Shown: in pieces, positions 41,619 through 64,000 of the stretch | How positions within the stretch are numbered: the first letter of the stretch is position 1 | Layout: each line of letters begins with the position of its first letter | Source of the DNA: Trypanosoma brucei | Taxonomy: Eukaryota | Assembly: GCA_000002445.1 (NCBI GenBank) | Contig: CH464491.1 | Span: 3,520,001-3,584,000, forward strand | Direction: 5' to 3' | DNA: 64,000 nt | Position numbers and translations under genes: made by a program | Notes under the pieces: model-generated | What the model saw: only the letters and a program-made list of their open reading frames with translations | The model's database searches: none | What the model was told of the DNA's origin: nothing

Positions 41619-42783
41619 TTACAGTACTATAACTTTATTTGATTTTTTCGAAGGAGGTAGTCAAACAAAAATGCAAGAGAAAAAAGTGTGGGTATATTCA
41701 CAGTTCCCTGGAGAAGATGATTCGAGGGGTAAATCCGACAACCTATCTCAATAATAAACCACTTTTTCTGATAGTAGACATGGGGAGTTATAAGTAACAA
41801 AAGGAACAACGTTTGTACCTGCATATCTGTATACGTGACACTGTACCTCCACTACTAACAGCCAAGTCATACGAGTTACGAAAAAAAAGGTAGGATGCCG
41901 GTTCCATTAAAAACCCGAGCACTTTAATACCGAGGGCAAAGGTGCGGCAACAACACCGGGGAAGGGTAAAAACATAAAAAGACACAGAAGAATGAGAGCT
42001 GAAGTATACAAACACGGCGGCGCACAAAACAAAAACAACAACTTTTTACGCTCGAAAAACAGTTAACGGAAGATGGGAGCAGCCCCACTTATTTCGCTGC
42101 GATGCACCATTCACCTAACGAACTTCCCTTCAACTGCACGGGAACACCTCTCTCTGCTTTATTTTCTCATGTACAACACCATTTTTTTCTTTCCGTGCAA
42201 ATTCTTTTTACACCCTCCCTCCTGTTTCTGTAGCTAGCGTTCCAAGGCGACGCGGGCCCAGGAGGCGGGCCGAGGTCTCCGACTGTCATAACAGTTTGCA
42301 TATTTACTGCCTCGATTGCTTCCACTTCTCACTTGCACGGAAGATCGTTTATCAGCTTTCCTCCTTTACGATAAAAGGAGTGTATAGACATTAAGGGTTA
42401 AAGGGAAGAACAAACCCATGCCACAAAGGAGCCACGGCACTTGTCCACCTGAACAACAAAGTATAAAAGCTCCCACCGGACCAAATGGTCGAGAATGGGA
42501 GATGGGACGAAGAAATTAAAGGACAGTAACAACGTCACAGGGGGCACAATTGAGCCCGTCGCCGAGAGGGCACCACCGACAAAAAAAATCAGTAGAAAAC
42601 ACACTTTCACCCCACGAGACGGCAGCTATTTAAATATTGTTTTCATATCACCACGCTAGCATCCAGGCACGTACACAAAGATTGTCAAAGTTCGCATTAC
42701 TCACTTTGAACCTCATAGTGTGCTGCCGCTCCTCCTTCATCCACTTGATCACGAAACCTCATACTTTCCCGTACTGCCTGCCA

Positions 42784-44706: not shown

Positions 44707-45043
44707 AACACCGCTACTACTCGGTCACAGTCCTCCTTCCCTTTTCCTCCTTTACACAAAAGCAACAGAGAAATGAGGCAGAGAAGAAGAGCAGTACACA
44801 AACGTGGAATGTGAGGTAATAACCACATGCTCCGAGGCGTTGCAGATTTGTGGCTCCGTGAATATGCACCCGACGGTGGTACTCCTCGTTCACACGTAAG
44901 CTACAAAAACAGGCGGCGTGTACCCACCATTGTGTACTCACGTCTTCTGGTTTCCCAAGAAGTCCCTGCCACCACCTGGAGTGTTCTCACTTCCAACTAT
45001 TATAAAATAATAATATACAGTGATATGGCGGTCCTTCACAACT

Positions 45044-46678: not shown

Positions 46679-47515
46679 CTTCACACGACGGCTCAGCGAT
46701 GCTGGACTCCCGGCAGTGCCTTCGCTATGCTGGTAAAACGGCTCACCCCCAAGTAATTCGGCGAAAACTGGAAAGGAAAAAAAGAAGTGAAAGAAGAGTG
46801 CACGAGCAGCGACGAAGAAGGATTGGGTGCCGCCTGCTACAGCGCGCATGATTACTACTCTCGACCTACTTCAGCCACGTTTACCATACTTGTTTTACCT
46901 TAACGTATGCCCTGCCCATTCACGTGTCCCAGTTGCCGTGGACCCCAACGTGCCACGCTAATCACAGAAGTGTTTGTAGGGAAGGGGGGCTGACATTCAG
47001 CTGTGAACACGTGGGGAATTTTTGCGTGGGACCCGGCTCTGAACTGTTAATGCGGAGCACACCCTTTCACCAACTTCTTGATTAGCCAGAAACAGTCCCT
47101 AACCGTACTTCCTTCCTCTCCACAGAGCCGTGCGCGGAGACATAAAATGTCGAGGTACACATACGAGCGTATGGACCTGCAGGAGCTAGTTATGTGTAAG
47201 TTGAGCGGCGCTTCCATGAAAAAAAAAAACATATGGGCAAACACCAGAGGGGCGGAGTTATTTATTATTAACTTCCTCTGCTTAAGGAAACAAAGGCGGG
47301 TTTGGGCTCAAGCACAAACCAAAACAACGCACGGAACTTACCCACGGCAACAGAGGAACTTGGACATAAGAAAGGATACAGCAGTGCGACTTATTTTCCT
47401 CTCACGCCGAACAAAGTAAACAAAAGCCGGCACCAACAACGGAGGAAGTCGATGTTCCAAAGAGTCACCAACCAAACGCCATCTCCCCCCTCAATGTTCT
47501 TTCGTCTGCAAGATG

Positions 47516-47908
47516 TTAAACGTGCTCGGTGTCCATGTCATACTCTCCGTAGTCGGCTTCGCGCTGCTTCTCCTTTTTAGAACGACCCGCTCTGCGCTCC
47601 TCTTCCCGGGCCTTCTTGTTATTGATGTCAAATTCCTTTTCCATGGCACTCATCTTGTCTTGAAGCTCTTCCACCTTTACACCCAATTTACGCGCCTCTT
47701 CCGCCTGCGCCGCTCTCTCTAACTCTTCTTCGGTTCTTTTGATGGCGGCTGACTTGGACTTCTTTTCTGCTTTGATTGCGGCCTCGACGTCCTTCTGCCG
47801 CGAGCCGACTTTCAAGCCGGCTTCCGCCCACAGGCCGCTCGGCACCTCACCCTTCTCCTGAAGGATCTTCGACAGCTTGGCCAGCGACTCCAAGCGCCCT
47901 TCACTCAT
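47516..47908 (-). CDS. small K/E-rich coiled-coil protein (130 aa)
   Basis: The track N-terminus is polyY translation (LLCASFHLCVLLSAPPLLLSP); ATG at 47906-47908 (MSEGRLESLAKL...). Charged coiled-coil AIKAEKKSKSAAIKRTEEELERAAQAEEARK. Confidence 0.4.
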   Translation of the reverse strand: MSEGRLESLAKLSKILQEKGEVPSGLWAEAGLKVGSRQKDVEAAIKAEKKSKSAAIKRTEEELERAAQAEEARKLGVKVEELQDKMSAMEKEFDINNKKAREEERRAGRSKKEKQREADYGEYDMDTEHV

Positions 47909-48352
47909 GACCGTAGTCGCGTTTCCCCTAAAGCCTTTGGTACGAGGTGAGAGAAGTAAAGGTGGAGCGGATAAAAGTACACATAGATGAAAACTGGCAC
48001 AAAGCAATGTAGTCAGCCACACAAGCTACGCAGGCGAGGAGGTGGGAAAGCGAATCGCCCACTTCCCACAGGTGTGGAAACAAAACTATGCTGATGGCTA
48101 CAATGCTAGCCCCCATAAACCGCGCAACTGAAAACTCTTTTATCAAATACACAGTTGGGCGCGTATCGGAGGAAACAGACAAAGCGGATACAACCGACGA
48201 CTGCTCAGCCGCCTTTGTTTCCCCTTCACTTTCCATTAGCTCTCTGAGAGATCCCCTAATACTTTCCAACTTTTTGCAGATACTCCAATTTCCCTACCAC
48301 TCACTTGGAAAAGAACTGTATCAAGGAGATTTCACCCGCGTGTCCAAAAGTT

Positions 48353-49102
48353 TCATGAATCGTGTAATCCGCCACTTTTCCTTTCCTTTAGAAATGCATC
48401 TAGTGGCACGATACCTACGTCATCCACAAGCTGCTCATACGGTTTATCCAAGTACCATTCCCACGGCACGTTAAGTATACATGAAACAAAGCGCTTTCCG
48501 TGTAACTGACGGGGAGCATTGGCACGTGCCCACTCATTATACATGCCCATGTTAAGGATCTGATCCATCCTGAGCCATGGCATACCACCCAATACCGCCA
48601 TAAGTCCAACCGGAAGGCCCGTGTGCTGCCACTCGAAGAGTTTCACTGCCAACTCCTCTTCGATTGTCCGCCCTAAGCCTACATATGCATGAACAAAGTC
48701 GTGAATCTGCCGATACCGAAGCATAACGTATGCGAGCGTTGGGTCGCTAACGTGCAGGATGGGTGCCCTTCCACTCGGTAGAAAATTGTTTCGTTTCATA
48801 AATGCTGCGTACCGGTACCCAAATGTTCCCTCTGGTTGTGTCTTAGCAAACTCCAATGTCTCGTCCGTTACCTGCGGTCTCTCTTTTAATATCGAGCGTC
48901 CCATTTCGTCCGCCATCATCAGCCGCTGCATGTGATGCAAGGCTGTTAACGCTGTAATCTCAGCAAATGCCGCACTTCCTCTACCATCTTCCGGGTCGAC
49001 AATGGCACCGAAGCTCGACGTGACAAACGCCGGCAGAGACTTTACGGCGCCGGCGATACCGCCAAGAAACATGACCGCGGACGAAACCACCCTACTCTGC
49101 AT
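48353..49102 (-). CDS. COQ4: ubiquinone biosynthesis protein COQ4
   Basis: COQ4 zinc-ligand motif HDFVHAYVGLGRTIEEELAVK (HDxxH-x11-E) with extended family similarity on either side. The track's N-terminal 95 aa is polyY translation (FFFFYHYCYLFCYF); ATG at 49100-49102 (MQSRVVSS...). Confidence 0.75.
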   Translation of the reverse strand: MQSRVVSSAVMFLGGIAGAVKSLPAFVTSSFGAIVDPEDGRGSAAFAEITALTALHHMQRLMMADEMGRSILKERPQVTDETLEFAKTQPEGTFGYRYAAFMKRNNFLPSGRAPILHVSDPTLAYVMLRYRQIHDFVHAYVGLGRTIEEELAVKLFEWQHTGLPVGLMAVLGGMPWLRMDQILNMGMYNEWARANAPRQLHGKRFVSCILNVPWEWYLDKPYEQLVDDVGIVPLDAFLKERKSGGLHDS

Positions 49103-49199
49103 TAATAACTGGGTACGATACAAACCCTTCCTTCTGCTATGGGCGATTGTGAGGAAAAGGGGTATGGATAATATGTTCAGGTCGTTACGGGGTGGTTCG

Positions 49200-49320
49200 G
49201 AGTAAACCGGGGATGGAAAAAATTCGGGAAAGAGGGTGAGTGCGGTACGACTAGAAAAGGGTTGGGGATTTAGAAAGTAGCAGAATAAATAACAGTAGTG
49301 ATAGAAGAAAAAAAATAGAG
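49200..49320 (-). promoter_or_regulatory. polypyrimidine tract / splice-acceptor region upstream of COQ4
   Basis: Purine-rich + strand (gggatggaaaaaattcgggaaagagggtgag...gatagaagaaaaaaaatagagcgggaacgag), so the coding strand is CT-rich. Confidence 0.45.
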
Positions 49321-50018
49321 CGGGAACGAGCCCCCATGTGTTTCTTTCAAAGTGCAATGTACCATCATTGCCTGTTGGCATGCACATAAACCAAGAAAGA
49401 AAGCCGCCTCAAGGTATCTGCACTGCTTCTCTTGTCACCATTGCCCTTCGGTGGCCTGGTATTAAGGCAGTGCAACAGACACAAATAAATAAACAAGAAT
49501 TCTCCGTAAGGCATGGTGGGGCTGCCATCGTCAACAGCCCCACGAATAATCACTCACCGTAATCGATAATTATTGAGCTGTACGGCAGGATCCGGTTGAA
49601 TAACCCACCAACAAAAAAATGTGAGTGCCATGTTGCCGGTGCTTCCGGGCTACGCACAACACAAATTTCCGGCGGCACAGCAACGACAAATTTTCACCTA
49701 TCTCTCGCCACCCATGTGGCACCGTAGAGTATGTCTCATTTTCACCGCCAGTCCTGGAATCATTGCCCCCCCCCCCGAGATATTTCTACGCGTGGAGTCG
49801 TGTGGTTTACCGAGCCTCGAATAACTGAAACAGGAGAACCGCAACCTTTATGACACTGACTGCCCTTCACCGTATGTGGCTACCACCATATAGATAGGGC
49901 CCCACCTGCGGCGAGGTAGAAGTTGTAGAAGGGGATAAGCCCCACCGGCCGCCCTTTTGGAATTTGAGGAATCATGTGGCGATTAATTAGGGCTTTAGAA
50001 GACGTGTCGTAGCTGTGT

Positions 50019-50420
50019 TTACGTGGTGCTTTTTTCCCTTTGAAAAGTCATCGTAGTTATAAGCCACTCCCGATCTGAAACGCAGTTGTTTAATTGCATC
50101 AACATCCAGCCATCCTCTAGCAGCGTCTCCGCCAGCACCCGCCGGTCGCTGTCGACGCACCGTGTCAGATCCCCTTCCCACCATCGCCGCGGCTCGCCAG
50201 CGACACCAGTAGAAGTTGTAGTGCTGCTCTGCGCGAGAAATTGTTCTAACAGGTACCGCATCCGAATCCGTTCGTTTAGTTGGGTAGCGACAGCGTCTGA
50301 ACATAAAAGGCGGCATTTCACACTGTCTGGCCCTGCTGCATCACCAAACCGTCTGAAATGTTCCCACACCTCCAAGTAGGTAATCTCCTTCACGAACTGC
50401 CGCACGGTATTTTTCATCAT
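50019..50420 (-). CDS. hypothetical protein (133 aa)
   Basis: ATG MMKN at 50415-50420 checked; continuous ORF; no recognised domain. Confidence 0.35.
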   Translation of the reverse strand: MMKNTVRQFVKEITYLEVWEHFRRFGDAAGPDSVKCRLLCSDAVATQLNERIRMRYLLEQFLAQSSTTTSTGVAGEPRRWWEGDLTRCVDSDRRVLAETLLEDGWMLMQLNNCVSDREWLITTMTFQREKSTT

Positions 50421-50777
50421 ACCTTTGCGCGTTCGTTGTGTTTATTGTTACTAACGCTAATGCGGAGACGAGAACACCCCAAGGTGTCGAGTAGAACACA
50501 CACACAAAGAAAAACAAGACGAAAAGGGGCTAAGGAACAACAACTTTGCGACGACGGAGGTCCAAAATAATGAGAACAGCAACACCTTAATCGTTACAAT
50601 CGTACTAGCATGGAAAGGGGGAGAAGCTCATGTCTTGTATCGTACAATCTGCCTCCTCAGCGATGGCGGAAGGGAAACAAAAAGTGGAAGGGGCTAAAAG
50701 AGGGAGGGAGAGGAGCTAGTTGAGAACAAACCCGATCATGAGATTGTGAGGAGGCCTCTGACACCAGTTGGTTAGCG

Positions 50778-51878
50778 TTAGCGCTGCCGCCGTCTGGACT
50801 CGTGCCTTCCGCCTGCATTTCCCCTTTCCCTGCTGCTCCTACCCTTCTTATCGTTATGGTTATTATTTCCCCGCCGCTGGCGGTTAGTGTTCATGTAATG
50901 TCCCCCCCGGAATGGTATGGCACCGCCATCGAAGACAATGTTGTCCGGGCTCACGAAGCCACCACTGAACTCGTCGCCGGGACCGCCATAGCCATAAGGA
51001 TCATTGTCCGTAAAATCATCATCGTCATCTATGCCCATAAAATCAACCTCAGGAGACTCTGCGTAATAGTTGAAACCATAAAACCGTTGTCTCGCACGGG
51101 GTAGCGATTTGTTGTCTTCACTCCACCGATTAAACTCCGCTACAACATCAGTTGTTTGCTTTCCTAGCGCGTTGGCAATGAAATCAAAACTTTTGCCGTC
51201 TTGGTACATGTTCACCATTGCCTGCACGTCAGCATCGGGCCATGTAGTTGTCTTCTTTCGAGTCTGGCCACCTTTTGCGTGCTGCTGTTTTTCGCCGTGC
51301 TTCGCCTTCTTCTGCCCCCTGCCCGCTTCAGTGGTCCGCTGCTGGTGGTGGTGGTGGTGCCTCCAGCTACTGTCGCGCGAAGGAGAGGCCTGTTCAAACG
51401 CCTCGTTCTCGGCTTGTCGGTGCATTTCTTCCCACATCATTTCGTAAAATGTTGGATTAATTTCCTCATGCCACGGTTGATACGGCTCGTCATGTGGAGC
51501 ATAGTATGAGTGCTCACTACTCGCCCTGACTCCGCCGGAGGCGCAATTATTTTTTTGGTGCATACCGCACCCACCTAATTGGTGGAGACGCCGGAGTGTG
51601 GCGTACGCGTTGTTAATGTTCACCATACGGGAAGAGGCACCGGTCCCCTCCTCTCCACTGACGTCGGGGTGGTGCTTCTTGGCGAGCTCAACGTATCGAC
51701 GCCTGATGTCTTCAAATGTAGACGAAGTGGCGACGCCGAGTGTTGCGTAAGCGCTGCGTACCTCCCCTTCCGTTGGTGCCTGTGTTGCCATGAAACGACG
51801 CTGGAGGGATCGAACGCTCCTAAATGCAGCCCAACTGCGCATGATTGGGTACCTCTTCAGAGAATAACCGTTGAACAT
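50778..51878 (-). CDS. DnaJ (J-domain) protein with a presequence-like N-terminus and a D/G-rich C-terminal region
   Basis: J-domain YATLGVATSSTFEDIRRRYVELAKKHHPD (HPD tripeptide). The track's N-terminal 76 aa is hydrophobic UTR translation; the likely start is MFNGYSLKRYPIMRSWAAFRSV (ATG near 51878; an alternative start is MRSW near 51842). Confidence 0.6.
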   Translation of the reverse strand: MFNGYSLKRYPIMRSWAAFRSVRSLQRRFMATQAPTEGEVRSAYATLGVATSSTFEDIRRRYVELAKKHHPDVSGEEGTGASSRMVNINNAYATLRRLHQLGGCGMHQKNNCASGGVRASSEHSYYAPHDEPYQPWHEEINPTFYEMMWEEMHRQAENEAFEQASPSRDSSWRHHHHHQQRTTEAGRGQKKAKHGEKQQHAKGGQTRKKTTTWPDADVQAMVNMYQDGKSFDFIANALGKQTTDVVAEFNRWSEDNKSLPRARQRFYGFNYYAESPEVDFMGIDDDDDFTDNDPYGYGGPGDEFSGGFVSPDNIVFDGGAIPFRGGHYMNTNRQRRGNNNHNDKKGRSSRERGNAGGRHESRRRQR

Positions 51879-52274
51879 TTGGGAGGCCAGCGTGTGGACG
51901 CGTAGAGTGCCCAATAAGAAGAGAGCGTGGAAAAGAATAGTTATGACCACAAGGAGGTCAGCAATAAATACAAGACAAGGGGTACACATATGTACAAAGA
52001 GGTGTACAACACAGCTCATAGTACACTGGTAACAATGAAGAAAGGCGATGTGGCTCAACCTGTCTTCGTAGCAAACAATAACAAAATCAAAAATAAAGAA
52101 GAACAAAAAAAAATCTCTTCACAAGCGAGAGAGAAGAAATCCCTACAATGAAAGCTCACAATGAACAAAGATAAATAAACAAATAAAGGATTGAAGAAAT
52201 AACGCAAATCTATTATTATTATTATTTTTCTCCCCTTTCTCCTTCTGTGCCATGGTCACTTCTACCATGTTCAC

Positions 52275-52688
52275 TTAGAGGTCCTCCTCTTGCTCTCCTT
52301 GCGTAAATTTACTCCATTCATTGTACCCATCTGCGAAGTAAGTTGCTGCTCTGTACCCCAACGCTTCCACCACATCAACTGCCGTTGCCGCTCGGCCGTG
52401 GCGCTGATCAAAGAAAACAATTTTGTCCGATGCCTGCGGCATACGTATTTTATACTTTGTTTCGAATGCGGTGGGACTCATGCGAAACGCGCTTCGCACC
52501 TCCGAGGATGGAATATGTACGGAGAAGGGGATAGTACCATATCTTTTTACTTCAAAGGCGTCTCGTACATCAACAATGAAAGTGTTTTCGCTCTTACCAC
52601 TTCGCTTACTCTTCAGAAGAGCTGCCATGTGAAACTTGTTAAGTGCCCTCTTGCGGTCTAGCTCCTCGTAAGATGTGCTCTGACCCAT
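52275..52688 (-). CDS. single-domain rhodanese-like protein whose active-site loop has Asp in place of Cys (FFDQRHGRAATA), so it is probably non-catalytic
   Basis: Rhodanese fold motifs FIVDVRDAFEVKRYGTIPFSVHIP and the C-terminal YFADGYNEW. The track's first codon is GTG; ATG at about 52688 (MGQSTSYEEL). Confidence 0.6.
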   Translation of the reverse strand: MGQSTSYEELDRKRALNKFHMAALLKSKRSGKSENTFIVDVRDAFEVKRYGTIPFSVHIPSSEVRSAFRMSPTAFETKYKIRMPQASDKIVFFDQRHGRAATAVDVVEALGYRAATYFADGYNEWSKFTQGEQEEDL

Positions 52689-52747
52689 AGTTTGCTTCAC
52701 CTTTTAGCTTTGTGACGGGGGTTTGCCTCCGGCTTTTCACACCTATC

Positions 52748-52767
52748 CTATCCTGTCCTGTCCTGTC
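52748..52767. repeat. (CCTGT)n pentanucleotide mini-repeat
   Basis: tatcctgtcctgtcctgtcgtttcc read directly. Confidence 0.7.
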
Positions 52768-53189
52768 GTTTCCTTTATATATGTATGTTTTCCTTTTTAT
52801 TTTTTTCCAATCAATCCTCAACGAAGCACGAGCGTCTTTGGATAAGGGAACTCAAAATCAGTGAAACGCGCAAATCACCGAAGTACAACACAAACACATC
52901 AAATAAAAATATGAACAGTAGCACACACCAGTGGTACAGCGAGATAAGAAAAGATGGGCCGCTCCCGCTCAACCGCTGCTTCCCCTTCAACTAGTTGACA
53001 AAAGCTGAGCCACTCGTTTTTATGTTATCAAAATTCACGAGAGCAGTTGCTCCCGCCTAATGAGATGGCGTACCGGCTGAACCAATTTTCACAGGTAAAA
53101 CTATGGGATCATAACGCGTGAAGGCTACAAGTCCGGACCCTCCACCTGAAACCACCGCGTAGTTCCTCGGCGGATTCAACCCGAGGTCC

Positions 53190-53621
53190 TCACCCTTTGC
53201 AACCATCCGCGTCGTCAAACGGTGCCCCACCGTAGCATTCCCGCCATTCGGCAAAACTCCCAACAAAGTTCTTCACGTAACGATAACCTAATCCCTCTGC
53301 AATTTCAGTGGCGGTGGCGGATCGCACACCCCTCTCACAGTAAAATATCAACTCTGCTTCGTCCTTACGTGGCTTTGGGTGTCCGAAAGTCTTCACAAAC
53401 TCTTCCTCGTCCACCTCGTCACTTAACGCAGCTGGCAATGCATTCAGTGGAATATTGACAGCGGTTGGAATAAGACCTGTCGCTGCAACCTCCCCTGTTG
53501 AACGCACATCCACGATGATTTTATTTGCTGCTGCCCGGCTTCCGCCAAGCTTTGACCTCACTACAGCCAGCACTTGAGGTGCAGTGATGGTCGCTAATGC
53601 ACGCGGCGTTACGAAAAACAT
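53190..53621 (-). CDS. single-domain rhodanese-like sulfurtransferase with an active-site Cys (YCERGVRSATA); tandem paralog of 52275..52688
   Basis: IIVDVRSTGEVAATGLIPTAVNIP ... LIFYCERGVRS ... FVGSFAEWRE. The track's first codon is GTG (53708); the probable start is the ATG at ~53621 (MFFVTPRALATI). Confidence 0.6.
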   Translation of the reverse strand: MFFVTPRALATITAPQVLAVVRSKLGGSRAAANKIIVDVRSTGEVAATGLIPTAVNIPLNALPAALSDEVDEEEFVKTFGHPKPRKDEAELIFYCERGVRSATATEIAEGLGYRYVKNFVGSFAEWRECYGGAPFDDADGCKG

Positions 53622-56001
53622 TTCCAGTGAGTCGTTTTTTTGTCCTGTTTGCGCTCTTGCGTCCTCGCCTGAGACAATAGCAGAGTTTTGTCCCGGTACA
53701 AGCAGCACTTTCCCTCTTTACTAGTTCCCAGGCAAAAAAAAAAAACAGAAGGAGAGGGATAGGGAGAAGGACACTTTGATTTTTTTTTTTTTTGCAGAGC
53801 TTGCAAGTCCTCACGTCTTTTTTCCCCCATTCCGTGTGCAAGCCCGATAAAGGACGAATGGGAATAAACCATTTAACCAGAGAAATACTGTATAATAATA
53901 TAGCCTCTTACACTCACTTATAAAACCATTTTTTTTTTTTTGTTACCACCCTATTCGTCTCCTTTCCAAATATCACAATTCATTTAACACAATAGTGAGA
54001 TGAATTACACACCGCCCCTTCCTCAGTTCTATCATCGCTATTCCCCTCCCTTATCTTTTGCCAACCATTGCCTTTGCGGGAATCCACATTAAAAGAATTG
54101 TCACCACACGTCATACCTAAGTACAAAACACCATCTGTTGATATCATTCCATTCCATTCCACTTCCTTTTCTTTCCCTCACCCTCAACCTTCCCACCGTT
54201 TCCATCGGTTAGCTACGGTCTGTCGTAACCGTTTCTTCCCTCCATGCTACGGTAGGGTACCGCAGAATATAACTCAAAGACACAAAACGATACCATGCCC
54301 AACAATTTCTCTCCACACTAAAAAACAACAGCAACAACAGCAGCACAAAGTGTGTGTTTTTCTAAAAAAAAAAAAAACGCCCCCTAAAAAAAAAAAATGG
54401 GCGAAACCGGTTGGGGACAGTTTCCCCTTTTGTTTCTTCTGCTTGTCACCCAATCCAGCTCACTGAATCAACGTGACTGCCCTTCACATTTTCATTACTT
54501 TTGTCAGTTAATGATAATCTCACTCGAAGGAGGTGAATGTTAGAGAAAACAACTAAACAACGACAAAAAGCAGCCTCCCCATATTTCCACTTTCCTCTCC
54601 ATCCTCACAAAAATATCAACATCATCCCTCCCCACACCATCGTTTTTGTTGTTATTATTATTACTTTCGTTATTCACTTATTAAACTTTACATCATGAAG
54701 ATCTCCGGGAGAGAAAGTGCATATACACACAAAGAGTCGAGTGCGAGGGGCCCTGCTGGAACCGGTCGGTCGCACATCCACTTTGCGGTGACCGTCAGCT
54801 ACGGTTGTAATAATTCCCATGTGGGAACTTCTTTCCTCCCTCTCCCCCCTTGGCCTATCTCTTTTCTCAGCATCCCGAGACACCCCGCCCCTGCTGCTAT
54901 TACCACGCGCCAACCCAAGTGAAAACAAAGAAGAAAAAAAACTGTGGTAAAAGGACATGACTATTACCTAAAGCAATAACCACAAAACAAAGTGACGCTA
55001 GCAACAAACAAGCACACAAAACTGCAATATAGAAAGGTAAGAAGGTTAGGGCATACCAAAGTTGCCAAAAAAATGTAAAAGGAATGCCAAAATCACCGAG
55101 GATGGGGCCAGACGCAGGAACAAAAGCAAGAATAAAGTAAGTCTGCCGCCGAGTATAAGCCCCGAACGCGCAAATCTTACCTTGTATTCTCGTCCCTGCC
55201 TCACAAACAAGCGTATGTGTACGCGTTCCCCTCCACACCCCTTTTGGCCAACTCATAGAAAACACTCCCGTTTAGCTACTTATTTACTTCCTCCTTTGGT
55301 TGTAGAGCCGGACGCGACGCGTACCCGGAGAACGATTCTTCAGGGAGAAGTAAAAGCAGAACATAATGCAAAAAAAAAAAAAATGAAAAAGATGTCGAAA
55401 ATGAGGCTGGTGACAAGCCCTTTGCAGGGCCGGCGCCTTTTCGCATCTCATATTGTGTTTGATAAATGATGTTTTTCTCTCCCTTTTCCCTGGGGAAGAA
55501 GGAAAAGAACCAGAATTGCAAAAAGAAAAAAGAAGACAACAACTATCTGAAATGAAAACAGAGAAAAAAATACACATTGCGCATACACTAACAATAAATA
55601 TCCCCACCCATGTATGGGAAAGAACGGCAACAACACCAAAAGAAAATAGAATATAAGCACAAAAAGGGAGAAAAAGAACCTGAATAAAAGAAGTGTTCAT
55701 ACTCGTACACATCTGCAGCTCCCCACACAAAATGTCACTGGCATATTGGAGGAAAGGATTCAATAAATAGGAATAACACGGTGGAGCTTTTATTATTATT
55801 ATTTTCTTTAGTTCCTGGAAATGCATTGATTTTCTGTAGATTTCCCCCTGCCTGTCTTTAACAAACTAGTGAACCTTCAATGGCCTACATTACCGCAAGT
55901 AGCGGTGGTGTTCCCACTATAAAGGTGGGGAATTGACCCAGAATCCACTTCCCTGCAGCTTTCCGGCATCACTTTTTTACATACAACCAATTAATTGAGC
56001 A

Positions 56002-58521
56002 CTATTTCTCCCGTCTGCGGACGACAAAGGCCACCGTATTCAAGGGCGATCCATTGAACTTGAATCGAGACTCCAACATGTTTCCGCTTTTATCGATGAA
56101 GGACAAAAGACAAGGGGTAGTACGTAGATTGACCTTGTCTCGTGCATAGGTTGCGGAGTAGAGCGCGCTAAAGCATATCTCCGAAACCGCACTGTACTCC
56201 TCCCCTATTTCGCTCTTGAGGATGTAATGGTGTCTGTCTAACAAGTCAACCTCGACAACGAAGGTACAGTATCGAGCAAGGGATGTCCAACGCACTAGGC
56301 ATTCCAGGGGTTCACGCTCTCCGGTGGTTGCGGCAAGAAGGTGACGCATGATCACGAAATCGTACATTTTTCCACCAACGCTACCACCATCAAAGACTTT
56401 ATCAATCCGGATATTACCGCAAAGCACGGTGCGTGACTTATTACTGCTGGTAGAGAGCCCTATGTTACAAGGCTTTGCGCACAACAGCCGTTGTGCAGCA
56501 GGGTTTTTCATAATTCGATCTGCTTCCCGCGACGTTGGCAGTTCACACGTTTTCTGCCGATGGTTGGTGGGCTTTGGAAGAACAATAAGAACGCTAATGG
56601 TACCCGTGGCAGCACCTTCAGCACCATAGACCCCGCGTTCCGGGAAACCGAAGCGTTTTGCATTATTTTCTGGTGTTATCCACTGCTCCCGTTCATAGTT
56701 AACCGCTACATCTTCCGTCTGGTAATCGAAGGCCTCGTTACGTAGCCAATCGCCCGACTCACTGTCACAGATGGGTGCACGCCTCCGCGCTTGCTCGATC
56801 TCCAAGCGCCTCCTTCGCCTCCTTTCCTGCTCCTCCGGTGGCATGTCCTTGAGGTAGCGTGTCCCCCCGAAGTTGTAATCCTTCAACTTGACGTTAAGTT
56901 TGTGCATGCCCATGGAGCCTTGGAGCATACCAATTTCATTTATGCATGCATTATCCAGGTGGGCGGCAAACATTCCCCAGAAGCTTTGCTCTTCCTTCTT
57001 GTTTACTTCACGGTCACCAAATGCTCCACACATCAGCTGCTTCGCTACATCGCACAAGTCAAAAAAGGCAAAGTTCATGGCAGACGTATTGTTCCAACTG
57101 AATCTTGTGCGGGTCGGGTTGGTCTCCTTTTGATGTTCCCATTCCTTTTTCACGAGTTGTAGCCAGTGTGTTCGACTCTGAGTCCATATGTTAACGAACT
57201 CTTCTCCAAACATTTTTTGGAGATTTTCCTTGTCAAGATAATGCCGCTTATTCATAGCTTCGTTCAAAATATCGCCCTTCTCGCTGAACCCACCCAAATA
57301 ATGCATTTGCACATTGGTGTGCTTGTGGACTGGTATAATTTCTTCCGGTGCGCGCCGCGGTAGTCCATCAGCTACTTCCACCGGCTCACCAAACAGTTCC
57401 GTCATCAGCGATGCATTTTCTCGCACCAAGCCGTGCAACCTGGTGAGCATCGCAGCTGCACAGCCACGTAGGGCCCATGCACTTGCTGCACAACTAAACG
57501 GTGTCAAGGAAACCGGATATACCGGGGCAGGCTTATTGGTGTTTTCTCCGTTGTCCTTCTGCTCAATATGGTTGAAAGAGAGCGACGTGGATTTTTCTTC
57601 CTTAGCCTTCTTAAGGCGCCTCCGGTATTCCTCCACGCAAGGTTGCTCCCCCAGAGCCGCCCTATAGTAGAACACACACGACAACCGATTCCAGGTAGCG
57701 TTGGCCTCCTTGGCCTCTAGCTCCGTGTTTGAGTGGAACAGGTGCGTGTCGAAGAGTAAGACATCTGTTGGCTGCATGTTGAAGCAAACACCATAGTCAT
57801 CGAGGGCTAGGCTAAGACCACTATACTCACCTTTGAGCACAGCTAGGACACCATAACCGTTATCGAAGTCGCCATTGTCTGTGTGTGAGGCGGTGCGAAA
57901 CCGCTCATTGACTGTCAGTGTCGAAAAAGGAGAACCGTGGATGCGTACTACGTCCGGCACCGCTGCATCCTGTGCTTTCCAGTGGTCTGGAAGAGCAGCC
58001 TTATAAATTGCGCTCGTATAGTCAATCATAGGGAACACACTTCGCCACTCTTTAGTGTGCTCGTAGGTAAAGGAGGTCTTGCGACACTTCAGTTCCACGG
58101 GGGTACCACGGTAGTCGAAATAACCAGCAATGCCACTATTAGGGGAAACCCCACCGAACAGTGCCGAACGAAGGGAGGTACGCGCCACCGCGCACTCAAG
58201 GACGTCCGCTGCCATAGAGGTTGCGAACGATGGTAGAGCCTTTGGTATTAACACCCCACAGACCTTTCCCTTTGCGTTTCTGAACACTGTGGTACCATGG
58301 AAGTCAACTGTATGGTCGGCGTTGTTGTGAAATGGATGCTTTTTCACAGCCTCCTGAAAGGCCTTTTCGGCCTTCTCCCTCGCCTCGGCATCAATCTGGG
58401 AACCCTGCATGTAGTGGTTAAAGGCGTACACCACATCATTCGACGGTTGATAAACGTCCCAGCCGGGTTTCATGGAGTCATCTGCTTTCTCCCTCAGTAC
58501 CTTCTTCACCTGCCTTCGCAT
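56002..58521 (-). CDS. JBP1: J-binding protein 1 (thymidine hydroxylase of base J biosynthesis, TET/JBP 2OG-Fe(II) dioxygenase), 839 aa
   Basis: TET/JBP dioxygenase core RFRTASHTDNGDFDNGYGVLAVLKGEYSGLSLALDDYGVCFNMQPTDVLLFDTHLFHSNTE (H-x-D ... H). The track's first codon is GTG; the ATG three codons in gives MRRQVKKVLREK and a length of 839 aa, which matches my recollection of T. brucei JBP1. No SNF2 ATPase domain is present, so this is not JBP2. Confidence 0.8.
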   Translation of the reverse strand: MRRQVKKVLREKADDSMKPGWDVYQPSNDVVYAFNHYMQGSQIDAEAREKAEKAFQEAVKKHPFHNNADHTVDFHGTTVFRNAKGKVCGVLIPKALPSFATSMAADVLECAVARTSLRSALFGGVSPNSGIAGYFDYRGTPVELKCRKTSFTYEHTKEWRSVFPMIDYTSAIYKAALPDHWKAQDAAVPDVVRIHGSPFSTLTVNERFRTASHTDNGDFDNGYGVLAVLKGEYSGLSLALDDYGVCFNMQPTDVLLFDTHLFHSNTELEAKEANATWNRLSCVFYYRAALGEQPCVEEYRRRLKKAKEEKSTSLSFNHIEQKDNGENTNKPAPVYPVSLTPFSCAASAWALRGCAAAMLTRLHGLVRENASLMTELFGEPVEVADGLPRRAPEEIIPVHKHTNVQMHYLGGFSEKGDILNEAMNKRHYLDKENLQKMFGEEFVNIWTQSRTHWLQLVKKEWEHQKETNPTRTRFSWNNTSAMNFAFFDLCDVAKQLMCGAFGDREVNKKEEQSFWGMFAAHLDNACINEIGMLQGSMGMHKLNVKLKDYNFGGTRYLKDMPPEEQERRRRRRLEIEQARRRAPICDSESGDWLRNEAFDYQTEDVAVNYEREQWITPENNAKRFGFPERGVYGAEGAATGTISVLIVLPKPTNHRQKTCELPTSREADRIMKNPAAQRLLCAKPCNIGLSTSSNKSRTVLCGNIRIDKVFDGGSVGGKMYDFVIMRHLLAATTGEREPLECLVRWTSLARYCTFVVEVDLLDRHHYILKSEIGEEYSAVSEICFSALYSATYARDKVNLRTTPCLLSFIDKSGNMLESRFKFNGSPLNTVAFVVRRREK

Positions 58522-59164
58522 TCGTCCCACCGCGTCTTCTTTTCCACCAGCTCCTCTATGTCCAGGACGTTATTTTTTCTTTTTCAAATCGTGCCGCACG
58601 TGAAACGGTACCCCGGTGACTCCGCACAAAATACGCCCCAACGCTGCCAGCTAGCCCCCTTCCCGGAGTCAAAGGATTGAAGCTCGTGCGGGGCCTTTGT
58701 CTGCTGTAGCTGCCTTTCATCAGATAAAGAAGCATGATTGGTGGAAAAGAGTGTTGGCAGCAGCTTGAAAAGGAGGGAAACCAACGATAGTATCCAAGGA
58801 ACAAGGTATGGGAAGAAAATGCAGCGATCAGCCATAACCGGCCGGGGAAAAAACTAAAAAAAATATAGGAAGAGGGGAGAATGATGGTGTCCGAGCTAAA
58901 CAAATAACAAGCCAATCGAGTCACCCGCTTACGATCACTCCTCTACATTGTACAACACTTGTGTGATTGATCACACAATAGAATGACTCGCAGCGATAAG
59001 GGTGCCATCATAAAACGGCTGGTGATGGTGTGTGGAGAAGCGGCAACGCAGCGTTAAGACGATAAGAACATAAGGCAGATGAATTCGTGCACCCGCGCAG
59101 GTGCAATACACTCGTACCTTTTGTGTGTACTACACAATAGATAAAGAAATAGAGCGGATTAGAC

Positions 59165-59524
59165 TCAGCTTGAGAATAGAAAGTATATAATAATGGCCAC
59201 GATAGAAGACGTCACCGCAATAAGCTCAAGGGAAAAGGCGCTGGTGGTTGATGTTTCGGAAGAGGCTTTCAAGATCTTTACGTCCTCGGGGCTCAACCTG
59301 CCCACACAATATTTTTTGAGCTCTTCCTTCGCCATGTCACTGTGCCCAACCGAATTAAAGTCATCTGTCCCATCTTTACCGGCCACCCCAAGGAGTGTGT
59401 CTACGCCACCAGGATGTTGGCTAACGTACTTGGTGACATCATAAACTTTCTCGTCAATGCTGATCCACAAATCACCTTCTGCCGCATGCTTTTGAAGCTC
59501 TTTCAGCGATACAAACCCCTCCAT
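59165..59524 (-). CDS. cytochrome b5, tail-anchored
   Basis: Heme-binding motif YVSQHPGGVDTLLGVAGKDGTDDFNSVGHS and a C-terminal TM helix LIAVTSSIVAIIIYFLF; ATG at 59522-59524 checked. Confidence 0.7.
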   Translation of the reverse strand: MEGFVSLKELQKHAAEGDLWISIDEKVYDVTKYVSQHPGGVDTLLGVAGKDGTDDFNSVGHSDMAKEELKKYCVGRLSPEDVKILKASSETSTTSAFSLELIAVTSSIVAIIIYFLFSS

Positions 59525-59552
59525 GTATATATATATATAAATAAATATATAT
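59525..59552. repeat. (TA)n / AT-rich microsatellite immediately upstream of the cytochrome b5 start
   Basis: gtatatatatatatataaataaatatatatg read directly. Confidence 0.8.
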
Positions 59553-59891
59553 GTTTTCCTTTTGCCCGGCGGCTGCCAAAATCTGTGACTTGTTATTCTT
59601 CTTGAGTAAAGTCTCGATTAGTGAGAAGGAAGAGAAAAGGAAGAATAAAAATGCTGACGGCCTCTACTAGCCGTTTCTTACCCTACTTCATTTGTGTTTT
59701 TGTGGTTTCTGTTGCTCTTTTACCTGACGTTCAGTGCGAAGCTTCACTCCGCAGTTTTAACCACCTGCCCCACGATCCTTCGGGAGATACAGCTGTAACG
59801 TCAACCCCATGACGATGGCAAGCCGGAAGTAGGAAGAAACCACGGCACCACTCACTCTTCAACTTTGCACATTGCCAGTGCCTCCGCACAT

Positions 59892-60299
59892 TTAGATCCC
59901 AACTCTTGCGGGAGTACCAGGCATGGCGCCTAATCGCACCATCTCGGCAATCGTAACAAACTCAACGAACCCGATGCGCCGCCGCGCTCCGTCACAGCGT
60001 TCCCTCTGGGAGTAGCCTTCATACGGTGGTGGGGGTGGCATGCAAGCTTCCTGGTGAAGTCGGCACTCAATGTGATACAACTCGGGGTTCATCACACCTC
60101 TAAGCACATCCGGCGGAACGGTTATATGATTTCCTGCACCCTTGCGCTGCTGCTGCTGCCGCTTCTGCTTTTGCTGCCGGAAGACTCGCATTTCCACCTT
60201 CTCTAAGTTGGAGCTAAGATCCTTCAGGCATGCCTTCATGCGCCGCTCACGGATGCTCTTCCGTGCACGCCTCACAAGCTTCATCTTAGGGTGGCTCAT
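59892..60299 (-). CDS. hypothetical basic protein (135 aa)
   Basis: ATG at 60297-60299 checked; K/R/Q-rich N-terminal half; no recognised domain. Confidence 0.35.
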   Translation of the reverse strand: MSHPKMKLVRRARKSIRERRMKACLKDLSSNLEKVEMRVFRQQKQKRQQQQRKGAGNHITVPPDVLRGVMNPELYHIECRLHQEACMPPPPPYEGYSQRERCDGARRRIGFVEFVTIAEMVRLGAMPGTPARVGI

Positions 60300-60687
60300 C
60301 TACCTTTTGGTTGTTGAGCACTTTCCAGCCACACTTACTTTGTAGAGGCCGTGTGCAGGCGATAGGGCGCATGGAAAAGGTGTGAAAGGGAAGATGCCAA
60401 CAGGGCTCGCATAGTCCCGCATCATTTGCAACCAGGGAGTAGTAGCGTGATAGAGACAGGATGACAAATCTACATTAACTTACATATGTGCGGCCAAGTG
60501 GAAAAAGAGTCCACCTTTGAACACAAAAAAACCCTTTCAAAGGAAAAGAAAGAAATGCTTGTGAAAGGCGGTTATCTTCACTCGGTTGTTCTGCTTTTAA
60601 GAACTTCCTTGCAACGGAGTACATACCGAGATGTTACAGTACAAATATTAACCTCTACATTTTGCCGTCCCCCGTAGTTTCCACTTC

Positions 60688-63600
60688 TCACGGTGCAGTG
60701 GCAATTTCACATTCCATGAACCGTACATATGGGATCGGAATTGGTTCTTTGTGCTGCTGCTTCTGTAAACGACGAAACTTGCGTACGGAACACGTACACT
60801 TTACCTCATAAAGATATGCCACATGATCCACATCCAGCGTGCGGTAGCCGAAAAGCGGGTTAACAGGAAGCCGCCATGACAAACATCGCATAACGATAGC
60901 GTTTACCCAGTGCGTAATGTTCTGTTTTTGCGCGGGGTCGTCGTCTTCAAAGTTAACACGAACACCAGCAGCGCAGGCTGTGAGGCGAATACCGACGTTA
61001 CATTCTTGAGGCCTACACTTCTCTACCTCACTTTCCACAGCTTCCATGACAATACCGTCGATACCCTTGTTGTTCTGCGTCAACACGAAGTAAATCGTTC
61101 TTTTGAAGAGTATCTCCTTCAGGGGGCCGGCTTGCACCAGAATGTTCTTGAAAACACTGAACATATCCGGCTGAACGACAGCGCTCCCTACCGCAAATCG
61201 CATGACGACATGAACTTCCTTTGAGTCCCTCTCGCGTCTCAGTTTGTCGCGTGCATCGGAGTCTAGTGGGCAGGTGTGAATGGGGATGAGCTCTGCAGTA
61301 AATGGCAACTCGCGGTCGAGCTCCTTCCTCGCCGCGGCATACGTTTGCTCATCGACTACAGACTGCATCTGTGACACTACGTAGGTGGCCAAAGACCTCC
61401 AGTCTCGCTGCTCCGCAGTAGTCTCAATACCCCCCCGCAGTATAGCGGCCTTTGTGTGAGCCGAAACACGTGGCAACCGTCCATCGAAGGCCTTCTTCAG
61501 GATGTCAGTGAAAACACGCCGCTGTTGTGGTTTGTAAGGGAATCGCAACGTGTTGCCCGTGCTGCTTGCCAAGCAAGCAAAACCACAGGTCATCGGAGTG
61601 ATAGGTTCCAAATCGAAGGCAACAACACGCTGCAACCCTACAGGCGTCATATGTCGCTGGAAAATTAGCTGCATAAGCTCCCCGACCTCGCACAGTGTGT
61701 TTGCGTACGGGTTGACAAAAAGATTCTCGCACGGCAGAATGAAGTTCATTCCCGCCTCATTTTGCCTGTACAAACGTTCATATTCCTCCGTAGATTCGAT
61801 GGCTAGCTTTATCTCCCGGATGATCATCAGAACTTCTGTATCGTATTCTGCTTCGCACGCCATGCGAAGGTTTGCTTCCTCATCCTCTGTCTCCGCCACC
61901 GCCCAACGGAACATTTCATCCCTTTGCCGAGCTGCCATTTCAGCCTCCTGCGTCGCTTTTTTGCTCATTATGACAACTTGCTTCTTTTTCGACTTGCGAG
62001 CCTTTGGTTGTGGCATGGTCTCGCGGAAGTTTTGTATCATTTGCCGGTAGCCCAGCCCACGCTCGAGGTCAATGTGAGCCCTTTGGCTCCCCTCTGAAAT
62101 AGATATGTGAAGGCTGTGGAGAGAAACTAGGATGGGTTGGCGTATCTCCATCCTTCCACCGTAACCACTAACGTACACAAATGACGTCGCATTTTGGTCA
62201 AGTTCTGCGATCGACTTAGTAATGGCCACTCTTTCAGGGTTGAGTAGGTGAGTAACTTCGTAACCCTGTCGCCTCAGCATCGACGACAACTCCTCTAGAT
62301 TATCATTTATTGACGGTATCGACTCCGCTTCTATATCATGAAGCGAGATGAGCAGCGCAGACAACCTTTCCCTAGCCTTGAGGAGAGGGTTTGCTCGAAG
62401 CACAGCGATCTCTTCAACCCGACGTTCCTGAACCTGTTTCTCATTAGCCAGGCGCAGCGCTTCCATTCGACCCATTTGTGCTCTCCAGTTCCTCTGAATC
62501 AGAACTGCAGCCCTTTCGTATGTCGCTATGTACAAGCGCCTGTTAAATAATGCTATGGAGGCTGCCTCATCGGCTGTTGCACGACCAGATAGATGATGAA
62601 TAATGTGAAGACTGGAACCGAATTCAGCGTTAAGTAAGTGATTGTGCAGCACGGCGCTAAGAAGCCACGGCTTCCCGCTGTTCTGCAGGGAACGAACAAG
62701 GTCCTCAGTTACGATGCTCTTTCCGCTCACGGTTATAGGTCCCAGTTTCCATGTCGTGAAGGGCTTTAGGGTGTCAGAAAGAAGAACGGAGTCCACACTG
62801 TTTATCATATGGTTTAGCATGATTTCTCTGCGCCCTTTGGTACCCGCCACCGCATAAGCATACTGCCACCGTAGCATACTTTGGTTGAATGTGGCGTCTG
62901 GTGGAAGCACGGGACCGTGCAGGTTGAGAAGAGTTACGTGGCAATCGCCAATTCTGATGACAAACATAAAATGACCAACGGGCTTCTCCAAGGACAGTGC
63001 TTCGTTGACTATCTCCTCAAACTGAACAAGGGTCTCCACATGTCTGAAACAACTTTCGGGCAGTGCCCTCCACGTTTTCCACTCCGGCCGAGCGTCACAT
63101 ATGTGCTGCTCGACGACCCTCAGTTCCACAGAAGCACCGGCTAGCACATCATATGGTACCTCGCGCACAACACCTGATTGGCTGAATTCGCATGTGAACA
63201 CAACCGCAGCCAGCGAAACAGCATTGTTCATGTGGATGAAAACTTCATCCTGCGCAGTGGTATCTTGCCCCTCTTCGTGTGTTTCCTCCAGATACGGGTA
63301 CCAAAAAACATCATGACGACGAATTGCGCATGTTTTTTCACTGATCAGTAGTCCGTGGTTGCACCGGCCGCTTGAGTCTTGCAGCACATATGAGCCTGGC
63401 CCCTCATTCATCACCAACGTCGCGAGCGGCACGCCGCGTGCGGAGATGAAACACCGGGAGATTTCACCATAGAAAGGGCACTGCACTCTGTAGCTACGCA
63501 CGTTATGGCCACCGAGACAGATCCAATCATCGAATGGTATAAATTTCCCTGGTCCCTCCCGCACCAGGTAGAACAGCTCTTGCGGTGTGCCGTCAACTTT

Positions 63601-64000
63601 CACTGAATAAGCGTTGGCCTCACTGTCAATGCACTTCCAAACCAAAGTATGCCATTGCCCATCCATAAAGTTTGTGTGCTCATTTCCTCTCAGTAACGCC
63701 GAGCAGCAAGCGCCTAGCGAGTCCACGAGGTATAGCGTAATGTTATACTCATGAAAGCGGTAGCGCTCCCTTCCGAACGCTGGCTCCGCATTGAACACGA
63801 TACCGAATCCCTGCATTCTGCATTGTTTGTCTGTCACACCAAGTAAGCTCATAACTCTATTGTCTACATCTGTTTTAAATCTAATTTCTACAGTCCAATT
63901 GTGTAGCAAATCCCCTAAAATACCTAATGTGCCCAGATTCACCACGAGGTTTCCGTCCAAATGCGGAGCACAGGAGGGTGGTGGGCCACAACCTGGTTCG
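60688..64000 (-). CDS. 5'-truncated large protein (more than 1100 aa) with an N-proximal concanavalin-A-like/LamG-like beta-sandwich region and an IQ motif; the gene continues beyond the window edge
   Basis: The track start (63960) is a TTG, and the frame stays open to position 64000, so the true N-terminus lies outside the window. LamG-like segment FMDGQWHTLVWKCIDSEANAYSVKVDGTPQELFYL; IQ motif AAVLIQRNWRAQMGRMEALRL. Confidence 0.5.
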   Translation of the reverse strand, partial: EPGCGPPPSCAPHLDGNLVVNLGTLGILGDLLHNWTVEIRFKTDVDNRVMSLLGVTDKQCRMQGFGIVFNAEPAFGRERYRFHEYNITLYLVDSLGACCSALLRGNEHTNFMDGQWHTLVWKCIDSEANAYSVKVDGTPQELFYLVREGPGKFIPFDDWICLGGHNVRSYRVQCPFYGEISRCFISARGVPLATLVMNEGPGSYVLQDSSGRCNHGLLISEKTCAIRRHDVFWYPYLEETHEEGQDTTAQDEVFIHMNNAVSLAAVVFTCEFSQSGVVREVPYDVLAGASVELRVVEQHICDARPEWKTWRALPESCFRHVETLVQFEEIVNEALSLEKPVGHFMFVIRIGDCHVTLLNLHGPVLPPDATFNQSMLRWQYAYAVAGTKGRREIMLNHMINSVDSVLLSDTLKPFTTWKLGPITVSGKSIVTEDLVRSLQNSGKPWLLSAVLHNHLLNAEFGSSLHIIHHLSGRATADEAASIALFNRRLYIATYERAAVLIQRNWRAQMGRMEALRLANEKQVQERRVEEIAVLRANPLLKARERLSALLISLHDIEAESIPSINDNLEELSSMLRRQGYEVTHLLNPERVAITKSIAELDQNATSFVYVSGYGGRMEIRQPILVSLHSLHISISEGSQRAHIDLERGLGYRQMIQNFRETMPQPKARKSKKKQVVIMSKKATQEAEMAARQRDEMFRWAVAETEDEEANLRMACEAEYDTEVLMIIREIKLAIESTEEYERLYRQNEAGMNFILPCENLFVNPYANTLCEVGELMQLIFQRHMTPVGLQRVVAFDLEPITPMTCGFACLASSTGNTLRFPYKPQQRRVFTDILKKAFDGRLPRVSAHTKAAILRGGIETTAEQRDWRSLATYVVSQMQSVVDEQTYAAARKELDRELPFTAELIPIHTCPLDSDARDKLRRERDSKEVHVVMRFAVGSAVVQPDMFSVFKNILVQAGPLKEILFKRTIYFVLTQNNKGIDGIVMEAVESEVEKCRPQECNVGIRLTACAAGVRVNFEDDDPAQKQNITHWVNAIVMRCLSWRLPVNPLFGYRTLDVDHVAYLYEVKCTCSVRKFRRLQKQQHKEPIPIPYVRFMECEIATAP

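What the first reader, a model, noticed from the sequence alone, without database searches (positions are those of the whole stretch)
56002..58530. JBP1 (base J thymidine hydroxylase) gene, with the start needing correction from the ORF track
The ORF carries the TET/JBP dioxygenase H-x-D...H iron-binding core and has the JBP1 length with no SNF2 domain. JBP1 is the reader-writer of base J (beta-D-glucosyl-hydroxymethyluracil), the kinetoplastid DNA modification that marks Pol II termination sites and telomeric repeats. The track's first codon is GTG; the biological start is the ATG three codons in, giving 839 aa. This is a known system, not novel, but it is the most functionally distinctive gene in the window.
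Basis: partly seen in the sequence, partly recalled or inferred. Interest (0 to 1): 0.5.

Follow-up and report, generated by a model that had tools for sequence, protein, structure and literature searches.

The report
Trypanosoma brucei JBP1 gene, already known

Summary
The ORF exists at 56002..58530 on the minus strand. Its listed GTG start is an artefact of bacterial-code ORF calling. The first in-frame ATG (58521..58519) gives an 839-aa protein. That protein is identical, residue for residue, to the deposited T. brucei brucei TREU927 JBP1 (XP_829420.1 / UniProt P86938).

- **Domains:** Pfam finds only Tet_JBP (residues 131-287, E 2.5e-58) and the JBP1 J-DNA-binding domain (residues 419-582, E 2.8e-94). 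There is no SNF2 domain.
- **Key residues:** The iron and 2-oxoglutarate ligands H213, D215, H263 and R279 are conserved. So is D548, the aspartate that confers specificity for base J.
- **Published evidence:** H213 and D215 of this very protein were shown by mutagenesis to be required for J synthesis.

One side observation may be worth a note. The C-terminal ~200 residues have no Pfam family and are called part of the hydroxylase domain in the literature. In the model they fold like a class I SAM-methyltransferase that lacks the glycine-rich SAM loop.

The parts
56002..58521 (-). JBP1 coding sequence: ATG 58521..58519 to stop TAG 56004..56002, 839 aa
   Evidence: ORF list; codon check; exact match to XP_829420.1 / P86938
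58522..58530 (-). Three extra codons (GTG GGA CGA) added by the bacterial-code ORF caller; not part of the gene
   Evidence: The deposited protein starts at the ATG. An in-frame stop lies 14 codons upstream of the ATG
57661..58131 (-). Tet_JBP 2-oxoglutarate/Fe(II) dioxygenase (thymidine hydroxylase) core, residues 131-287
57877..57885 (-). Iron-binding H213-T214-D215 (HxD)
   Evidence: Invariant in 16 and 39 homologues; codons CAC ACA GAC. Tb H213 and D215 changed to Ser abolish rescue of J levels (PMC1874643)
57733..57735 (-). Distal iron-binding His, H263 (= L. tarentolae H239)
   Evidence: Invariant; codon CAC. Lt H239A is inactive
57685..57687 (-). 2-oxoglutarate-binding Arg, R279 (= L. 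tarentolae R255)
   Evidence: Invariant in 16 and at least 90% conserved in 39 homologues; codon CGG. Lt R255A is inactive
56776..57267 (-). J-DNA-binding domain (DB_JBP1 / JDBD), residues 419-582
56878..56880 (-). D548, equivalent of L. tarentolae Asp525, the residue that confers specificity for base J
   Evidence: Aligned in the KLKD-F/Y-NFGGTRY ribbon-helix motif; invariant in 39 homologues. Role of D525 from PMC3141245
56005..56604 (-). C-terminal region, residues about 640-839. The literature calls it the C-terminal half of the hydroxylase domain; in the model it has a class I methyltransferase-like alpha/beta fold
58767..58881 (-). Polypyrimidine tracts upstream of the ATG with AG dinucleotides at 58855 and 58765: candidate trans-splice acceptor region (inferred only)
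   Evidence: Sequence scan. This assumes the standard rule that a spliced-leader acceptor is an AG after a polypyrimidine tract; no RNA data were available

Best explanation
The locus is the single-exon gene for thymine dioxygenase JBP1 (J-binding protein 1) of Trypanosoma brucei brucei. It lies inside a long minus-strand polycistronic unit.

The protein both reads and writes base J. Its helical J-DNA-binding domain (residues 419-582, with D548 recognising the glucose of base J) docks on existing base J. Its TET/JBP-type Fe(II)/2-oxoglutarate dioxygenase domain (H213, D215 and H263 hold the iron; R279 holds 2-oxoglutarate) hydroxylates a nearby thymine in DNA to 5-hydroxymethyluracil. A separate glucosyltransferase (JGT) then converts that to base J.

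This lets J be propagated and maintained after replication. In T. brucei, JBP1 is the main source of J at the flanks of chromosome-internal Pol II units, while JBP2 acts mainly at telomeres.

Shown here: the identity, the domains, the conserved residues and the fold. Taken from published experiments: catalysis, J binding and genomic roles.
For: - **Identity:** Exact 839-aa match to XP_829420.1 / EAN80308.1 / P86938, with 3 substitutions against the gambiense-type sequence P86937.
- **Domains:** Pfam Tet_JBP (E 2.5e-58) plus DB_JBP1 (E 2.8e-94) and nothing else. PDB sequence hit to the L. tarentolae JBP1 DNA-binding domain, E 1.2e-52.
- **Relatives:** 47 homologues across kinetoplastids, all with the same two domains.
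- **Residues:** H213, D215, H263 and D548 invariant, R279 at least 90% conserved, in 39 sequences.
- **Literature:** Tb H213 and D215 mutants, and Lt H189A, D191A, H239A and R255A, fail to restore J but still bind J-DNA (PMC1874643). D525A loses J specificity (PMC3141245). JBP1/JBP2 double nulls lack J (PMC2655668). JBP1 deposits J at Pol II unit flanks (PMC2896530). JBP1 hydroxylates a T 13 bp from an existing J (PMC4344527).
Against: Nothing found argues against it. Two limits apply. No expression or N-terminal data for this locus could be examined, so the start codon rests on the first-ATG rule, the deposited annotation and the basic N-termini of other Trypanosoma JBP1s. Enzymatic activity is not testable with these tools.
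Confidence: 0.98

Rival explanations
1. The gene encodes JBP2, the second thymidine hydroxylase, which carries a C-terminal SWI2/SNF2 ATPase and does not bind J-DNA.
For: It shares the Tet_JBP domain with JBP1.
Against: Pfam at E<=0.01 finds no SNF2_N or helicase family. The JBP1-specific J-DNA-binding domain is present at E 2.8e-94. The sequence is an exact match to the deposited JBP1.
Confidence: 0.003
2. The gene encodes a J-reader only (JBP3-like), or an inactive JBP1 copy that binds J but does not hydroxylate.
Against: A complete Tet_JBP domain is present with all four catalytic residues. Identity to JBP3's domain is only 17%, against 47% to JBP1's. Wild-type Tb JBP1 restores J levels in null cells.
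Confidence: 0.005
3. The gene is JBP1, but translation starts at the next in-frame Met (residue 17, MKPGWD...) rather than at the annotated ATG.
For: The first ~40 residues are poorly conserved and modelled with pLDDT below 50. Leishmania JBP1s are about 24 residues shorter at the N-terminus. The spliced-leader acceptor site was not determined.
Against: Other Trypanosoma JBP1s begin at the aligned position with similarly basic N-termini (MKQKRGKQ, MAPKLQKR, MK-GKR). The deposited records use this ATG. Scanning ribosomes normally use the first ATG, and there is none upstream in frame. The basic N-terminus contributes to J-DNA binding in L. tarentolae (PMC10276184).
Confidence: 0.04

Closest known systems
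Thymine dioxygenase JBP1 of Trypanosoma brucei brucei TREU927 (UniProt P86938, XP_829420.1)
   Same: Identical over all 839 residues. Same domains and same catalytic and J-recognition residues.
   Different: Nothing. The only difference from the ORF track is the spurious 3-codon GTG extension.
JBP1 of Leishmania tarentolae (the structurally and biochemically characterised orthologue; PDB 2xse, 8bbm)
   Different: Leishmania JBP1s are about 44% identical overall. T. brucei has an N-terminus about 24 residues longer. The DNA-contacting Lt Arg517 is His540 in T. brucei. By published account JBP1 is essential in Leishmania, whereas T. brucei JBP1 nulls are viable.
JBP2 (SWI2/SNF2-containing thymidine hydroxylase)
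   Same: Shares the N-terminal Tet_JBP hydroxylase domain and the H-x-D...H...R motif. Both perform step 1 of J synthesis.
   Different: JBP2 has an SNF2 ATPase and no J-DNA-binding domain. This protein has the reverse.
TET 5-methylcytosine dioxygenases (human TET2, Naegleria NgTET1, Coprinopsis CcTet)
   Different: According to the literature, JBP1 oxidises thymine rather than 5mC. The J-reader domain and the C-terminal alpha/beta domain were matched by other PDB entries, not by the TET chains.

Membership tests
JBP1 (thymine dioxygenase, J-binding protein 1) | TET/JBP-type 2OG/Fe(II) dioxygenase domain | tested here: met
   [not shown]
JBP1 (thymine dioxygenase, J-binding protein 1) | Fe(II) ligands HxD...H and the 2-oxoglutarate Arg | tested here: met
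   H213, D215 and H263 invariant, R279 at least 90% conserved, in 39 homologues. They map to Lt H189/D191/H239/R255, which were mutated in PMC1874643
JBP1 (thymine dioxygenase, J-binding protein 1) | J-DNA-binding domain (helical bouquet, DB_JBP1) | tested here: met
   [not shown]
JBP1 (thymine dioxygenase, J-binding protein 1) | Conserved Asp in the ribbon helix that confers J specificity (Lt Asp525) | tested here: met
   D548 in KLKDYNFGGTRY, invariant in 39 sequences
JBP1 (thymine dioxygenase, J-binding protein 1) | No SWI2/SNF2 ATPase domain; length about 800-840 aa | tested here: met
   Only two Pfam families at E<=0.01; 839 aa
JBP1 (thymine dioxygenase, J-binding protein 1) | Sequence identity with the experimentally studied T. 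brucei protein | tested here: met
   Exact match to P86938 / XP_829420.1; 836 of 839 identical to P86937
JBP1 (thymine dioxygenase, J-binding protein 1) | Thymidine hydroxylase activity and specific binding to J-DNA | not testable with these tools
   Published for this protein and its orthologues (PMC1874643, PMC3141245, PMC2655668)
JBP2 | C-terminal SWI2/SNF2 ATPase (SNF2_N plus Helicase_C) | tested here: not met
   No such Pfam hit at E<=0.01
JBP3 | J-DNA-binding domain without a dioxygenase domain | tested here: not met
   [not shown]
Class I SAM-dependent methyltransferases (C-terminal residues about 640-839 only) | Seven-stranded Rossmann-like alpha/beta fold | tested here: met
   [not shown]
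Class I SAM-dependent methyltransferases (C-terminal residues about 640-839 only) | Glycine-rich SAM-binding loop after strand 1 (motif I, GxGxG) | tested here: not met
   All 39 homologues have VLVVLPxP-type sequence with no glycines
Class I SAM-dependent methyltransferases (C-terminal residues about 640-839 only) | Significant sequence similarity to a methyltransferase family | tested here: not met
   No Pfam hit at E<=10. Against PDB sequences the profile gives only E 0.83 and 0.91 to two methyltransferases

The most novel reading that the evidence does not exclude
The C-terminal ~200 residues of JBP1 are treated in the structural literature simply as the C-terminal half of the thymidine hydroxylase domain. 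They may instead be a degenerate class I SAM-methyltransferase-derived domain that has lost its glycine-rich cofactor loop. Such a domain could serve as a scaffold packed against the dioxygenase core, or as a DNA- or ligand-binding module. If so, JBP1 would be a three-module protein (dioxygenase, J-reader, methyltransferase-like), loosely reminiscent of AlkB-methyltransferase fusions such as ALKBH8. The evidence is a predicted structure only, and one key paper (Adamopoulos 2019) could not be read, so this may already be described.
Probability: 0.4. Interest if true: 0.3.

Novelty: already known. Interest (0 to 1): 0.08.

Why it matters
The gene matters biologically. JBP1 is half of the enzyme pair that makes base J, the kinetoplastid-specific DNA modification involved in Pol II termination and telomeric and VSG expression-site chromatin, and JBP proteins are founding members of the TET/JBP family. 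But this locus adds nothing new: the sequence is identical to the deposited and experimentally characterised protein. The practical value is a confirmed annotation and a reminder that a bacterial-code ORF track overextends eukaryotic genes to GTG/TTG codons. The only item that might repay further work is the methyltransferase-like fold of the uncharacterised C-terminal region.

Tried and rejected
- **JBP2, JBP3-like reader or pseudogene:** rejected on domain content, conserved residues and exact identity to JBP1.
- **RNA genes:** Rfam at gathering thresholds and a tRNA scan over the whole window found nothing.
- **Tandem repeats:** none in 52000..60700.
- **Recovering the source contig:** The look-up of encoding contigs returned no record, although the exact-sequence look-up does list the protein on a 5.26-Mb contig. 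The window's DNA was therefore not compared base by base with the reference chromosome.
- **C-terminal region and inter-domain linker (residues 288-382):** Pfam at E<=10 gave nothing.
- **C-terminal profile against PDB sequences:** only sub-significant hits.
- **Literature on the C-terminal fold:** searches linking JBP1 to a Rossmann or methyltransferase fold returned only PRMT5 papers ('JBP1' is also an alias of PRMT5) or nothing. The 2019 JBC domain-architecture paper (PMC6709619) is not held.
- **Apparent 3.9-kb gene-free gap below JBP1:** it is partly filled by two small rhodanese ORFs, so it is not an unusual feature.

Full report
**Observation.** The ORF list shows an 842-codon ORF at 56002..58530 on the minus strand that starts with GTG. 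Translating it directly gives V-G-R-M-R-R-Q... The fourth codon (58521..58519) is the first in-frame ATG. The upstream frame is closed by a stop 14 codons before that ATG, with no other ATG between. The stop codon is TAG at 56004..56002. The GTG exists only because the ORF tool applies bacterial start codons.

**Identity.** An exact-sequence look-up finds this 839-aa protein in the public collection as EAN80308.1 / XP_829420.1 / UniProt P86938. That record is 'Thymine dioxygenase JBP1, Trypanosoma brucei brucei (strain 927/4 GUTat10.1)', on a 5.26-Mb contig. It differs at three positions (T71A, S338P, D586N) from P86937, the T. b. gambiense-type sequence that represents the 90% cluster. A homology search returns 47 relatives across Trypanosoma, Leishmania, Crithidia, Leptomonas, Phytomonas, Bodo and environmental sequences. 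All of them carry the same two Pfam domains, at 30-56% identity outside the brucei group.

**Domains and residues.** Pfam finds exactly two families at E<=0.01:
- Tet_JBP (PF12851), residues 131-287, E 2.5e-58.
- DB_JBP1 (PF18526), residues 419-582, E 2.8e-94.

There is no SNF2 or helicase family. A sequence search of the PDB hits only the L. tarentolae JBP1 DNA-binding domain (2xse/8bbm, E 1.2e-52).

In alignments of 16 and 39 homologues, H213, D215, H263 and D548 are invariant. R279 is invariant in the 16 and at least 90% conserved in the 39. The codons were checked in window coordinates. The offset to L. tarentolae numbering is 24 for the catalytic residues (H189/D191/H239/R255) and 23 for the J-recognition Asp (D525). 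The ribbon-helix motif KLNVKLKD(F/Y)NFGGTRY aligns without gaps.

**Published experiments on this protein.**
- Yu et al. [quoted passage not shown] Serine replacements failed to restore J in JBP1-null trypanosomes, while wild-type Tb JBP1 did. The Lt H189A, D191A, H239A and R255A mutants were inactive but still bound J-DNA (PMC1874643).
- Heidebrecht et al. 2011 show that D525A abolishes discrimination of J-DNA and abolishes in vivo function (PMC3141245).
- Cliffe et al. 2009 show that deleting both JBP1 and JBP2 gives J-null T. brucei that still has glucosyltransferase activity (PMC2655668).
- Cliffe et al. 2010 show that chromosome-internal J at the flanks of Pol II polycistronic units depends mainly on JBP1 (PMC2896530).
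- Genest et al. 2015 propose that JBP1 bound to J hydroxylates a T 13 bp away on the complementary strand, which explains maintenance after replication (PMC4344527).

**Structure.** An AlphaFold2 model built from the 39-sequence alignment has mean pLDDT 83.3. Low confidence is confined to residues 1-42 and a few loops.
- Foldseek against the PDB gives 8bbm and 2xse first (target-normalised TM 0.93-0.94), then CcTet, TET2, NgTET1 and CMD1 (E about 1e-7 to 1e-5).

This independently confirms both the reader domain and the TET/JBP fold.

**Mechanism.** What I showed here is sequence identity, domain content, conserved catalytic and recognition residues, and predicted fold. What comes from the literature is the mechanism itself. 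The J-DNA-binding domain docks on existing base J. The Fe(II)/2OG dioxygenase oxidises a nearby thymine to 5-hydroxymethyluracil. JGT then glucosylates it to base J. JBP2 supplies SNF2-dependent de novo synthesis, mainly at telomeres.

**Rivals.**
- JBP2 is excluded: there is no SNF2 domain and DB_JBP1 is present.
- A reader-only JBP3-like protein or an inactive copy is excluded by the intact dioxygenase core.
- Initiation at Met17 cannot be formally excluded without RNA or peptide data, but it is unlikely. There is no upstream in-frame ATG, and other Trypanosoma JBP1s start at the aligned position with comparable basic N-termini.

**Context.** All 23 ORFs of at least 220 aa in the window are on the minus strand, and GC skew is negative throughout. 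This is what one polycistronic unit would give. Pfam assignments for the neighbours:

| Position (all minus strand) | Pfam domain |
|---|---|
| 59165..59524 | cytochrome b5 |
| 53190..53708 | rhodanese |
| 52275..52700 | rhodanese |
| 50778..52106 | DnaJ |
| 48353..49387 | Coq4 |
| 45044..46849 | SET |
| 42784..44706 | F-box-like |
| 31081..32859 | paraflagellar rod protein |

None has an evident link to J biosynthesis, which fits the lack of operon-like functional clustering in trypanosomatids. The window holds no Rfam family and no tRNA.

A sequence profile of the region gives only sub-significant PDB hits. The top two are nonetheless SAM-methyltransferases (E 0.83 and 0.91), aligned over a stretch that includes the conserved 'DFVVLQHVLS' segment. 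The glycine-rich SAM loop expected after strand 1 is replaced by 'VLVVLPxP' in all 39 homologues, so canonical SAM binding is unlikely.

The 2023 JBP1 modelling paper describes this region as the C-terminal part of the hydroxylase domain, with a beta-sheet contiguous with the N-terminal part. It never mentions a methyltransferase or Rossmann fold. Library searches found no paper making the link. The 2019 JBC domain-architecture paper is not held, so prior description cannot be excluded. This is a prediction-based lead, not a finding.

**Verdict.** The feature is an already known, correctly annotated gene, and interest is low.

Noticed in passing
[not shown]
   Followed up: partly
window 56002..58521 (-); public names: The exact JBP1 sequence and several orthologues (T. 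grayi, T. theileri) also carry the public name 'chaperone protein DnaJ' or 'DnaJ chaperone protein', although no DnaJ domain is present. This looks like a text confusion of 'DNA J-binding' with 'DnaJ'. By coincidence, a genuine DnaJ-domain ORF lies three genes downstream at 50778..52106.
   Followed up: partly
window 52275..52700 (-) and 53190..53708 (-): Two adjacent small ORFs (141 and 172 aa) each carry a rhodanese-like domain (E 4.6e-11 and 8.2e-13), possibly a tandem duplication. They fill part of the apparently empty stretch below JBP1. The remaining gap, 53709..56001, is 2.3 kb at 42% GC.
   Followed up: partly
window 58556..58881 (-): Upstream of the JBP1 ATG there are polypyrimidine tracts (58881..58767) with AG dinucleotides at 58855 and 58765. 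There are also out-of-frame upstream ATGs at 58735 and 58720, opening 59- and 54-codon ORFs that end at 58556. These would be uORFs if the spliced-leader site lies upstream of them.
   Followed up: no
window 56902..56904 (-), JBP1 H540: L. tarentolae Arg517 is described as close to DNA in the ribbon helix. The equivalent residue is His in T. brucei, and also in T. cruzi and L. mexicana. The neighbouring K545, K547, D548 and R555 are conserved.
   Followed up: no
whole window 1..64000: All 23 ORFs of at least 220 aa are on the minus strand, and GC skew is negative in 31 of the 32 2-kb bins. This is consistent with the interior of one polycistronic transcription unit, with no strand-switch region.
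   Followed up: no
proteins P0044-P0048: Environmental and assembly-derived homologues of 891-1156 aa carry both Tet_JBP and DB_JBP1 but are longer than canonical JBP1 (about 810-840 aa). Their extra regions were not examined.
   Followed up: no
window 60688..63960 (-), 35720..38569 (-), 40104..41618 (-): Three large ORFs (1090, 949 and 504 aa) in the same transcription unit have no Pfam family at E<=0.001.
   Followed up: no
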